Below, in pieces: positions 32,828 to 33,307 of a stretch of 64,000 nt of DNA. Both the position numbers and the translations under genes were made by a program. The stretch is from Escherichia coli (GTDB taxonomy: Bacteria > Pseudomonadota > Gammaproteobacteria > Enterobacterales > Enterobacteriaceae). The stretch is from the NCBI RefSeq assembly GCF_044324875.1, contig NZ_CP172185.1, one strand, 5' to 3'. The notes beneath the pieces were generated by a model, which worked only from the letters and a program-made list of their open reading frames with translations, was not told the origin of the DNA and ran no database searches. Within the stretch, counting starts at the first letter, position 1. Every line of letters starts with the position of its first letter.

Positions 32828-33307
32828 ATGGCAAATCCCGTCTATCTGACACTAAACGGAGAACTCCAGGGACTGATTTCATCCGGATGCTCGTCAATGC
32901 CGTCCATCGGTAACAAGGCCCAGATTGCACATCAGGATCAGATCATGGTGATGTCACTGTCCCATGGGCTGAGTCGCGCACAGAACGTCAATCACCAGGA
33001 ACTGACTATCACGAAACCGGTGGACAAATCCTCCCCCCTTCTGGGCAAGGCCATTTCGGAGAATGAATGTCTGACCTGTGATTTTGTCTTCTATCGCACC
33101 AACCGTTTTGGTATTAATGAGCCGTACTACAAGCTGAAACTGACTAATGCCCGGATCTCAAACATCGGCCTTACCGTTCCCCATACCATTAACGACAGCC
33201 CAGGGCAGCCGGAAGAGTCTGTGTCATTTACCTATGAGAGCATCAACTGGGAGCACATCGTCGCCGGAACCAGTGCGTACAGTCTGTGGAGTGAACGGAT
33301 TTTCTAA
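32828..33307 (+). CDS. hcp: Second Hcp-family tube protein
   Basis: 159-aa ORF MANPVYLTLNGELQGLISSG... from ATG 32828 with SD aaggag (32813-32818); Hcp1-like, clearly divergent from the Hcp at 12499-13017. The track ORF (32441) is over-extended. Confidence 0.85.
   Translation: MANPVYLTLNGELQGLISSGCSSMPSIGNKAQIAHQDQIMVMSLSHGLSRAQNVNHQELTITKPVDKSSPLLGKAISENECLTCDFVFYRTNRFGINEPYYKLKLTNARISNIGLTVPHTINDSPGQPEESVSFTYESINWEHIVAGTSAYSLWSERIF

What the first reader, a model, noticed from the sequence alone, without database searches (positions are those of the whole stretch)
32828..33307. Two highly divergent Hcp paralogues in one island
The Hcp at the end of the structural operon (159 aa, MANPVYLTLNGELQG...) and the Hcp upstream of vgrG (172 aa, MPTPCYISITGQTQG...) share little obvious sequence identity. 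Distinct Hcp types can act as chaperones or carriers for different small effectors, so the second Hcp may have a specialised cargo role.
Basis: seen in the sequence. Interest (0 to 1): 0.35.

Follow-up and report, generated by a model that had tools for sequence, protein, structure and literature searches.

The report
Two known, non-redundant Hcp tube proteins
This E. coli type VI secretion island really does encode two very different Hcp tube proteins, but the pair is already published and studied (Hcp2A/Hcp2B of the ExPEC/APEC T6SS2), so the finding is correct and ordinary.

Summary
Window 32828-33307 (+) encodes a 159-aa Hcp and 12499-13017 (-) a 172-aa Hcp. Both pass the Pfam and NCBIfam Hcp models, and they share about 30% identity.

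The window is an ExPEC-type E. coli chromosome with the aspV-linked T6SS island. The pair is already published as Hcp2A/Hcp2B (Ma et al. 2018), and deletion studies show they are not redundant.

New here:
- **172-aa protein:** it is 73% identical to the Vibrio cholerae tube protein and 86-96% conserved across genera. It sits in an hcp-vgrG-DUF4123-effector module, so it is most likely the canonical tube subunit.
- **159-aa protein:** it belongs to a conserved Enterobacterales subfamily with an L2,3 loop about 10 residues shorter.
- **Its relatives:** more distant relatives include toxin-fused Hcps. In 56 of 80 loci from other species a putative effector gene lies next to it (DUF4225, glucosaminidase, M23, Tlde1 and others).
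- **In E. coli:** that slot is an empty 339-bp AT-rich spacer, yet the gene is under strong purifying selection (dN/dS about 0.04).

So a specialised cargo role is plausible for the 159-aa Hcp's lineage. It is unproven in this island.

The literature names these genes inconsistently. "Hcp1" of strain RS218 is actually TssB.

The parts
32828..33307 (+). hcp, 159 aa (Hcp2A of Ma et al. 2018). It is the last gene of the structural operon and a short-loop Hcp subfamily member.
   Evidence: Translation. PF05638 and TIGR03344 matches. AF2 model with all top Foldseek hits being Hcp. 42.8% identity to P. aeruginosa Hcp3 (3HE1), matching the 43.05% that Ma et al. give for Hcp2A. dN/dS 0.035-0.093 among Escherichia alleles, about 0.04 against this window's allele.
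32815..32820 (+). Shine-Dalgarno AAGGAG, 7 nt before the hcp start. The gap to the vasL stop is only 17 nt.
   Evidence: Read from the sequence. No promoter-like site was found between vasL and hcp. Co-transcription is inferred.
33308..33646 (.). 339-bp, 30% GC spacer between hcp and yafT. This position holds effector-immunity genes in other genera and is empty here.
   Evidence: GC content. No ORF longer than 32 aa. tblastn with the downstream proteins of 86 loci finds no gene remnant.
33647..34432 (-). yafT lipoprotein gene. It is the conserved convergent end gene of this cluster type in many genera.
34760..34836 (-). tRNA-Asp (aspV), the island boundary.
   Evidence: ARAGORN and RefSeq annotation.
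31452..32810 (+). vasL (ImpA_N + VasL domains), immediately upstream of hcp.
13720..31441 (+). Structural operon: tssB, tssC, tssE, tssF, tssG, tagH, tssJ, tssK, tssL, tssH, vasI, tssA, tssM. The tssB gene (13720-14223) is the 'Hcp1' of the RS218, DE719 and DE205B papers.
   Evidence: RefSeq annotation of a strain 99-100% identical over this window. PF05591 match for TssB. Primer mapping.
12499..13017 (-). hcp, 172 aa (Hcp2B of Ma et al. 2018; 'Hcp2' of RS218 and PCN033; 'Hcp2a' of the AE17 papers). This is the canonical Vibrio-type tube protein.
   Evidence: 289 bits and 72.9% identity to V. cholerae Hcp 5MXN. 86-96.5% identity to the Citrobacter and Hafnia orthologues.
10320..12278 (-). vgrG, 652 aa.
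   Evidence: Phage_GPD, Phage_base_V and Gp5_trimer_C domains. RefSeq of strain 118UI marks it as C-terminally incomplete.
9481..10323 (-). DUF4123 adaptor/chaperone gene.
   Evidence: PF13503 match.
7888..9459 (-). 523-aa protein in the effector position after the adaptor. Function is not shown by any profile.
   Evidence: No Pfam or NCBIfam hit. Position only. It may correspond to XmtU of Ma et al. 2018, which was not verified.
6811..7821 (-). 336-aa protein in the immunity position.
   Evidence: No Pfam or NCBIfam hit. N-terminal hydrophobic signal-like sequence.

Best explanation
The island is the known aspV-linked T6SS of ExPEC/APEC E. coli (T6SS2) and carries two anciently diverged Hcp genes with different jobs. 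The 172-aa Hcp (Hcp2B) is divergently transcribed with vgrG, a DUF4123 adaptor, an effector and an immunity gene. It is the canonical tube subunit that stacks into the inner tube fired by the sheath. The 159-aa Hcp (Hcp2A) is made from the end of the structural operon. It belongs to a short-loop Hcp lineage that in other bacteria acts as an auxiliary, cargo-linked Hcp. Most likely its hexamer joins a tube built mainly of the canonical Hcp and carries a partner effector in its lumen. In this E. coli the adjacent cargo position is empty. Its role here is therefore either to carry cargo encoded elsewhere, or to co-assemble with related toxin-fused Hcps, or to serve a cargo-independent structural function.

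Shown: identity, divergence, conservation, gene neighbourhoods and published non-redundancy. Inferred: mixed-tube assembly and cargo loading.
For: **Canonical role of the 172-aa Hcp.**
- It is 72.9% identical over its full length to V. cholerae Hcp, whose tube-in-sheath structure is solved (5MXN).
- It is more conserved across genera (86-96.5%) than TssC (80%).
- Its L2,3 loop is full length.
- Published work shows that XmtU delivery is abolished without Hcp2B or VgrG2, and that deleting the loop blocks secretion. The PCN033 mutant lacking the 172-aa type loses competition.

**Specialised lineage of the 159-aa Hcp.**
- It is a uniform 159-aa family across Enterobacterales.
- Toxin-fused Hcps (DUF3289, Tle1, pyocin/colicin DNase, amidase) rank among the more distant relatives recovered with it, ahead of most plain 160-172-aa Hcps, and they share the short loop. 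The short or mid-length loop is enriched in fused Hcps: 27/33 against 24/57, p = 3e-4.
- In 80 loci from other species, 33 are cluster-terminal (tssM-vasL-hcp-...-yafT) and 47 are orphan. 56 have an adjacent putative effector, usually followed by small signal-peptide or transmembrane ORFs.
- The adjacent families are DUF4225, a transmembrane-rich family, glucosaminidase, M23 peptidase, Tlde1 and others.
- Several genomes hold 2-5 copies.

**Precedent.** In V. parahaemolyticus an Hcp1b-DUF4225-immunity module delivers its effector only when the canonical Hcp1 is present.

**Both genes are old and maintained.** The same two-Hcp layout occurs in Citrobacter freundii and Hafnia paralvei. The paralogues are 31-33% identical in each genome. 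dN/dS of hcp2A is about 0.04. The AF2 model has the Hcp fold.
Against: - No cargo gene flanks hcp2A in this window, nor in 16 of the 33 cluster-terminal loci elsewhere. A cargo-independent role is therefore equally possible.
- Engineered removal of the L2,3 loop from other Hcps abolishes secretion. It is unclear whether a natural short-loop Hcp can stack at all.
- No binding, secretion or assembly data were generated here.
- Ma et al. do not report in the text I read whether deleting hcp2A affects effector delivery.
- The AF2 model is only of moderate confidence (pLDDT 75).
- The neighbour analysis used a crude ORF caller and similarity clusters. Only some families have a named toxin domain.
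Confidence: 0.6

Rival explanations
1. Both Hcps are interchangeable tube subunits of the same machine, kept as differently regulated copies. One is made with the structural genes and one with the spike and effector genes. There is no cargo specialisation.
For: Both are bona fide Hcps. They sit in two divergent transcription units that respond to different degrees to serum. Sixteen of 33 cluster-terminal hcp2A genes in other species have no adjacent effector.
Against: - They share only 30-33% identity and differ by a 10-residue loop at a stacking loop.
- Both copies have been kept apart across genera, with no homogenisation.
- Deletion phenotypes differ.
- The 159-aa lineage has a strong neighbourhood link to effectors.
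Confidence: 0.15
2. The 159-aa Hcp has a cargo-independent structural role in the machine. For example it could be the first ring docking on VgrG, or a terminating or regulatory ring. That would explain why it is fixed at the end of the structural operon.
For: Its position after vasL (or after tssM) is conserved in 33 species-level loci, with or without cargo. It is under strong purifying selection in E. coli although the cargo slot is empty. Its altered ring-ring loop could suit an end position.
Against: Forty-seven orphan copies lie far from any T6SS core gene and mostly beside effectors, which argues against a purely machine-intrinsic role. No precedent was found in the papers read.
Confidence: 0.15
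3. The 159-aa Hcp is itself a secreted anti-host effector acting on eukaryotic cells, as several veterinary studies claim for 'Hcp' proteins of this island.
For: Infected ducks raise antibodies to Hcp2A. The PCN033 mutant lacking the Hcp2A-type gene replicates less in macrophages.
Against: - Recombinant Hcp2A did not inhibit macrophage phagocytosis.
- Much of the host-effect literature concerns other proteins under Hcp names: TssB as 'Hcp1' and the 172-aa Hcp as 'Hcp2a'.
- The family is widespread in insect, plant and soil Enterobacterales, next to antibacterial effectors.
Confidence: 0.07
4. In E. coli the 159-aa gene is a leftover of a lost hcp-effector cassette and no longer has a function.
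For: The cargo slot is empty. In strain 95-3192 the gene persists as an orphan after the island was deleted.
Against: dN/dS is about 0.04 at dS 0.26-0.48 between Escherichia alleles. The 1.3-kb query spanning the vasL 3' end, the gene and its spacer has one match in each of 581 of 5,426 complete genomes, and 576 of these cover at least 80% of it. The gene has a good ribosome-binding site.
Confidence: 0.03

Closest known systems
Hcp2A / Hcp2B of the APEC/ExPEC T6SS2 (Ma et al. 2018, PMC5874247)
   Same: These are the same genes. Hcp2A ends the vipA2-hcp2A cluster and lacks the Vs2 (L2,3) loop. Hcp2B heads the divergent hcp2B-vgrG2 operon. The 42.8% identity to 3HE1 found here matches their 43.05%.
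   Different: In their strain TW-XM the adaptor is described as DUF2169 and the effector as XmtU (PAAR-like plus peptidase C39). Here the adaptor is DUF4123 and the 523-aa protein has no profile hit. The paper does not discuss the empty cargo slot or the effector neighbourhoods in other genera.
Vibrio cholerae Hcp and its auxiliary clusters (hcp-vgrG-DUF4123 adaptor-effector-immunity); tube structure 5MXN/5OJQ
   Same: The 172-aa Hcp is 72.9% identical over its full length. The module order hcp, vgrG, DUF4123, effector, immunity is the same; the V. cholerae layout is from my own knowledge. The main operon order, including vasI and vasL, is Vibrio-like.
   Different: V. cholerae's two hcp genes encode the same protein (my own knowledge). 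It has no short-loop Hcp after vasL.
Hcp auxiliary modules: V. parahaemolyticus Hcp1b-DUF4225-Imm4225 (Jana et al. 2022, PMC9765294)
   Same: A second Hcp is paired with a downstream effector and depends on the canonical Hcp. DUF4225 proteins are the commonest neighbours of the 159-aa Hcp family, at 20 of 80 loci.
   Different: The window's copy has no effector next to it and lies inside the main cluster, not in a mobile auxiliary module. Dependence on the canonical Hcp is untested for this family.
Hcp-ET, Hcps with C-terminal toxin domains (Ma et al. 2017, as summarised in PMC6730261)
   Same: The Hcp domains of toxin-fused proteins are 40-50% identical to the 159-aa Hcp. They share its short loop and the GLISAGC and KPxDKSSPLL motifs. 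Delivery of Hcp-ET1 was reported to depend on T6SS2.
   Different: The window protein ends right after the Hcp domain and has no toxin extension.
P. aeruginosa Hcp1-Tse cargo chaperoning (Silverman et al. 2013; my own knowledge, not tested here)
   Same: It is the general model in which an Hcp ring lumen binds and stabilises small effectors.
   Different: In P. aeruginosa the cargo-binding Hcp is also the tube protein of its system. Here two different Hcps coexist in one system.

Membership tests
Hcp / TssD (PF05638, TIGR03344) | Sequence match to the family models above the curated cut-offs | tested here: met
   159-aa protein: 85.3 bits (PF05638) and 203.8 bits (TIGR03344). 172-aa protein: 113 and 209.3 bits.
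Hcp / TssD (PF05638, TIGR03344) | Hcp beta-barrel fold | tested here: met
   AF2 model of the 159-aa protein has pLDDT 74.9. The top Foldseek PDB hits down to about rank 45 are all Hcp chains; the only non-Hcp entry among them (7o42) itself contains Hcp1. Best hits are 3he1, 6a2v and 5mxn, TM about 0.75. The 172-aa protein was tested by sequence only.
Hcp / TssD (PF05638, TIGR03344) | Encoded with T6SS core genes | tested here: met
   Both genes flank a complete tssB-to-tssM cluster with vgrG.
Hcp / TssD (PF05638, TIGR03344) | Hexameric rings that stack into a tube, with T6SS-dependent secretion | not testable with these tools
   Literature only: antibodies to Hcp2A and Hcp2B appear in infected ducks.
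Canonical Vibrio-type tube Hcp | High full-length identity to V. cholerae Hcp with the complete L2,3 loop | tested here: met
   For the 172-aa Hcp: 72.9% identity and a 21-residue loop segment identical in length.
Canonical Vibrio-type tube Hcp | The same feature, applied to the 159-aa Hcp | tested here: not met
   34% identity. The loop segment is 12 residues against 21.
Cargo-linked auxiliary Hcp (Hcp plus adjacent effector-immunity) | Effector and immunity genes directly next to hcp | tested here: not met
   In the window there is only a 339-bp spacer and no remnant. The feature is met in 56 of 80 loci of the same subfamily in other species.
Cargo-linked auxiliary Hcp (Hcp plus adjacent effector-immunity) | Physical binding of the effector in the Hcp ring, and dependence on a canonical Hcp for delivery | not testable with these tools
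   Precedent only, from V. parahaemolyticus Hcp1b.
Hcp-ET (toxin-fused Hcp) | C-terminal toxin domain after the Hcp domain | tested here: not met
   The protein is 159 aa and the Hcp domain covers residues 6-143. Toxin-fused relatives carry 244-663 aa.

The most novel reading that the evidence does not exclude
The short-loop 159-aa Hcp may define a conserved 'docking' Hcp class. It would not build a tube by itself but would insert into, start or end a tube made of the canonical Hcp. The site between it and yafT would be a swappable effector-immunity slot in Enterobacterales. On this reading E. coli keeps the docking Hcp, without any cis cargo, under strong purifying selection because it serves cargo encoded elsewhere (for example toxin-fused Hcp relatives in the same genomes) or has a structural role.
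Probability: 0.3. Interest if true: 0.45.

Novelty: already known. Interest (0 to 1): 0.15.

Why it matters
The finding adds no new kind of system. Its practical value is clarification.
- It assigns which of the two Hcps is the canonical tube protein and which is the specialised one.
- It shows that the specialised lineage is usually coupled to antibacterial effectors in other genera but stands alone in E. coli.
- It exposes that published 'Hcp1', 'Hcp2a' and 'Hcp2b' names for this island refer to different proteins in different papers, including the sheath protein TssB. This affects how the host-cell literature on these 'Hcp effectors' should be read.

Tried and rejected
- **Remnant gene in the spacer.** I searched the hcp-yafT spacer with tblastn, using all downstream proteins from 86 loci. 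The only hits were to the yafT end included in the query region. No ORF there exceeds 32 aa.
- **Own promoter or terminator for hcp2A.** Consensus scans found none between vasL and hcp and no terminator after hcp. Site counts were close to shuffled expectation, so the scans are uninformative.
- **Identity of the 523-aa and 336-aa proteins.** Pfam and NCBIfam gave no hits, so I could not confirm that they are XmtU and XmtV.
- **Zhou et al. 2012 (PMC3294675).** The paper is not held. I mapped the RS218 names through primers in two later papers instead.
- **Decaying pseudogene.** Rejected because dN/dS is about 0.04.
- **Recent duplication.** Rejected because the paralogues are 31-33% identical in E. 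coli, Citrobacter, Hafnia and Enterobacillus alike.
- **Not attempted.** Hexamer or hetero-stack modelling, since only monomer prediction is available.

Full report
**Observation**

The ORF at 32828-33307 (+) encodes 159 aa beginning MANPVYLTLNGELQG. The ORF at 12499-13017 (-) encodes 172 aa beginning MPTPCYISITGQTQG.

Both proteins exceed the curated thresholds of Pfam PF05638 and NCBIfam TIGR03344. They align at 30% identity over 168 columns with E = 1e-25. The 159-aa protein lacks about 10 residues in one place.

**Where this is**

The window is 99-100% identical to the chromosome of uropathogenic E. coli 118UI. The layout runs fadE-ivy-yafV, then the island, then yafT, tRNA-Asp (aspV), dnaQ and rnhA.

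The island has two divergent units.
- **Minus strand:** hcp (172 aa), vgrG, a DUF4123 adaptor, a 523-aa protein, a 336-aa protein, then IS remnants.
- **Plus strand:** tssB, tssC, tssE, tssF, tssG, tagH, tssJ, tssK, tssL, tssH, vasI, tssA, tssM, vasL and then hcp (159 aa).

The 159-aa gene starts 17 nt after the vasL stop and has an AAGGAG ribosome-binding site. A 1.3-kb query spanning the vasL 3' end, hcp2A and the spacer, and a 0.9-kb query around hcp2B, each matched 581 of 5,426 complete E. coli genomes. Matching strains include UTI89, APEC O1 and 536. About 30 of the hcp2B-query matches are only 80-90% identical and may be other hcp genes.

**Already known**

Ma et al. 2018 (PMC5874247) describe exactly this pair in the APEC/ExPEC T6SS2. 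Their Hcp2A sits at the end of the vipA2-hcp2A cluster, and Hcp2B heads the divergent hcp2B-vgrG2 operon.
- They place the two in different phylogenetic Hcp types.
- They note that Hcp2A contains only the Vs1 loop and lacks Vs2 (loop L2,3).
- They show that XmtU delivery needs Hcp2B and VgrG2.
- They show that deleting Vs2 from Hcp2B blocks secretion.

The identity I compute between the 159-aa protein and P. aeruginosa Hcp3 is 42.8%. This matches their 43.05% for Hcp2A and fixes the correspondence.

Peng et al. 2016 made single and triple deletions in strain PCN033. Primer sequences show that their hcp2 is the 172-aa type, their hcp1 an Hcp2A-type gene and their hcp3 a 382-aa toxin-fused Hcp. 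Only the hcp2 deletion lost competition against K-12. The hcp1 deletion affected replication in macrophages.

**Naming trap**

Primers in the DE719 and DE205B papers follow the naming used for strain RS218. They map 'hcp1' to window 13720-14223. That ORF is TssB/VipA (PF05591), not an Hcp. Their 'hcp2' is the 172-aa Hcp.

The AE17 papers call the 172-aa protein 'Hcp2a', which is the reverse of Ma's usage. Claims about 'secreted Hcp1' or 'Hcp2a' acting on host cells therefore do not concern the 159-aa protein of this finding.

**What the two proteins are**

*The 172-aa Hcp.* It scores 289 bits against V. cholerae Hcp (5MXN, the tube inside the sheath) and is 72.9% identical to it.

*The 159-aa Hcp.* It reaches only 72-82 bits against any solved Hcp. 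Its AF2 model (pLDDT 75) nevertheless has the Hcp fold, with all top Foldseek hits being Hcp chains.

*Conservation of the layout.* The same two-Hcp arrangement exists in Citrobacter freundii and Hafnia paralvei. In Enterobacillus tribolii the two genes lie in tandem.

| Comparison with E. coli | Identity |
|---|---|
| 172-aa Hcp, Citrobacter and Hafnia orthologues | 86-96.5% |
| TssC | 80% |
| 159-aa Hcp, Citrobacter and Hafnia orthologues | 78-82% |
| 172-aa versus 159-aa Hcp within any one genome | 31-33% |

The split between the two Hcps is therefore ancient, and both are maintained.

*Selection.* dN/dS for hcp2A is 0.035-0.093 among Escherichia alleles (about 0.04 against this window's allele), which differ at dS 0.15-0.48.

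**The 159-aa lineage**

A word-indexed search returned 453 relatives at E <= 1e-5. Nearly all of the 120 listed are 159 aa long, from Salmonella, Citrobacter, Enterobacter, Klebsiella, Hafnia, Buttiauxella and others.

A full scan of 1.8 billion representatives looked further out. Among the more distant relatives are Hcps fused to toxin domains: DUF3289, Tle1 phospholipase, pyocin S/colicin DNase, amidase and DUF6883. They share the short loop and the GLISAGC and KPxDKSSPLL motifs. Among the representatives, a short or mid-length loop occurs in 27 of 33 fused Hcps against 24 of 57 plain ones (Fisher p = 3e-4).

**Neighbourhoods**

A scan of one genome per species returned 80 loci.

| Context | Loci | With adjacent putative effector |
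|---|---|---|
| Cluster-terminal (tssM-vasL-hcp, usually closed by a convergent yafT) | 33 | 17 |
| Orphan, no T6SS core gene within 10 kb | 47 | 39 |
| Total | 80 | 56 |

Some genomes carry 2-5 copies. The 56 loci have a protein of about 180-320 aa from a recurrent or recognisable effector family within 1.5 kb downstream.

| Neighbour family | Loci |
|---|---|
| DUF4225 | 20 |
| Transmembrane-rich family, no Pfam hit | 15 |
| Unnamed family 'FAM3' | 6 |
| LysM-containing family | 4 |
| Glucosaminidase PF01832 | 3 |
| Another unnamed family (my clusters FAM5/FAM8) | 3 |
| Another unnamed family (my cluster FAM9) | 2 |
| M23 peptidase with PG-binding domain | 1 |
| Tlde1 | 1 |
| Single uncharacterised 308-aa protein (L056) | 1 |

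These genes are followed by one or more small ORFs with signal peptides or transmembrane segments, which is the usual look of immunity genes. DUF4225 is an experimentally shown T6SS effector in V. parahaemolyticus. There it is encoded after an auxiliary Hcp1b, which cannot deliver it without the canonical Hcp1.

In the window the equivalent position is a 339-bp, 30% GC spacer. It contains no ORF above 32 aa and no remnant of any of these genes. Nearly all E. coli carriers show the same arrangement.

**Interpretation**

The best-supported reading has two parts. The 172-aa Hcp is the canonical tube subunit. The 159-aa Hcp is a member of a cargo-linked, short-loop lineage.

By analogy with Hcp1b and with toxin-fused Hcps delivered by T6SS2, it would join a tube made mostly of the canonical Hcp and carry cargo. 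This is inference. No assembly or binding was tested, and E. coli lacks a cis cargo.

Half of the cluster-terminal copies elsewhere also lack an adjacent effector. A cargo-independent structural role therefore remains a serious rival. Interchangeable tube subunits, a direct anti-host effector and a decaying remnant are less likely, for the reasons given under each rival.

It applies, if at all, to the 159-aa Hcp at the given coordinates and not to the vgrG-linked one. The vgrG-linked effector sits in a layout that is adaptor- and VgrG-dependent.

**Verdict**

The feature is real and ordinary, and it is already published. The extra comparative points are modest extensions: an empty cargo slot, effector neighbourhoods in other genera, kinship with toxin-fused Hcps, and the naming conflicts.

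Noticed in passing
window 13720-14223 (+): This ORF is TssB/VipA (PF05591). Primer sequences show it is the gene called 'hcp1' in the DE719 and DE205B papers, which follow RS218 naming. Reports of a secreted 'Hcp1' effector from this island therefore concern the small sheath subunit.
   Followed up: yes
window 12499-13017 (-) and 32828-33307 (+): The names are swapped between laboratories. The 172-aa Hcp is 'Hcp2B' in Ma et al. 2018 but 'Hcp2a' in the AE17 papers (primer ATGCCAACCCCATGTTACAT). The 159-aa Hcp is 'Hcp2A' in Ma et al.
   Followed up: yes
window 33647-34432 (-), yafT: The yafT lipoprotein gene is the conserved convergent last gene of this T6SS cluster type in Citrobacter, Hafnia, Buttiauxella, Lelliottia, Trabulsiella and Enterobacter. 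It looks like part of the island and not of the E. coli backbone. Its role is unknown.
   Followed up: partly
L003/L005 10482-11501; L006 12108-12830: An AcrVA2-like (PF26125) gene lies between the 159-aa hcp and yafT in Citrobacter freundii and Hafnia paralvei. It is absent from the window. Its function in a T6SS cluster is unexplained.
   Followed up: no
L094 (E. coli 95-3192), 4002-5778: In this strain the whole island is deleted between yafV and the 3' end of vasL. An intact 159-aa hcp remains beside yafT and aspV.
   Followed up: partly
window 31500-33300: The vasL-hcp segment is only 90-95% identical to APEC O1, while the adjacent tssM end is 99.5% identical. dS between E. coli hcp alleles is 0.26-0.31. 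This suggests a recombination patch at the aspV-proximal end of the island.
   Followed up: partly
window 10320-12278 (-), vgrG: RefSeq annotates the identical gene in strain 118UI as a pseudogene missing its C-terminus. Here it is a 652-aa ORF whose stop overlaps the DUF4123 start.
   Followed up: no
window 6811-9459 (-): The 523-aa and 336-aa proteins in the effector and immunity positions have no Pfam or NCBIfam match. Whether they are the published XmtU/XmtV pair was not established.
   Followed up: partly
window 4178-6501 (-): An ISEc1 (ISAs1-family) transposase gene and a small PFL_4695-family integrating-conjugative-element protein lie at the yafV-proximal edge of the island. Strain 118UI additionally carries a group II intron here that the window lacks.
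   Followed up: no
L076 9414-10480 (Enterobacillus tribolii): The 172-aa type and the 159-aa type hcp genes lie in tandem on the same strand, directly opposite tssB. This is a different arrangement of the same pair.
   Followed up: no
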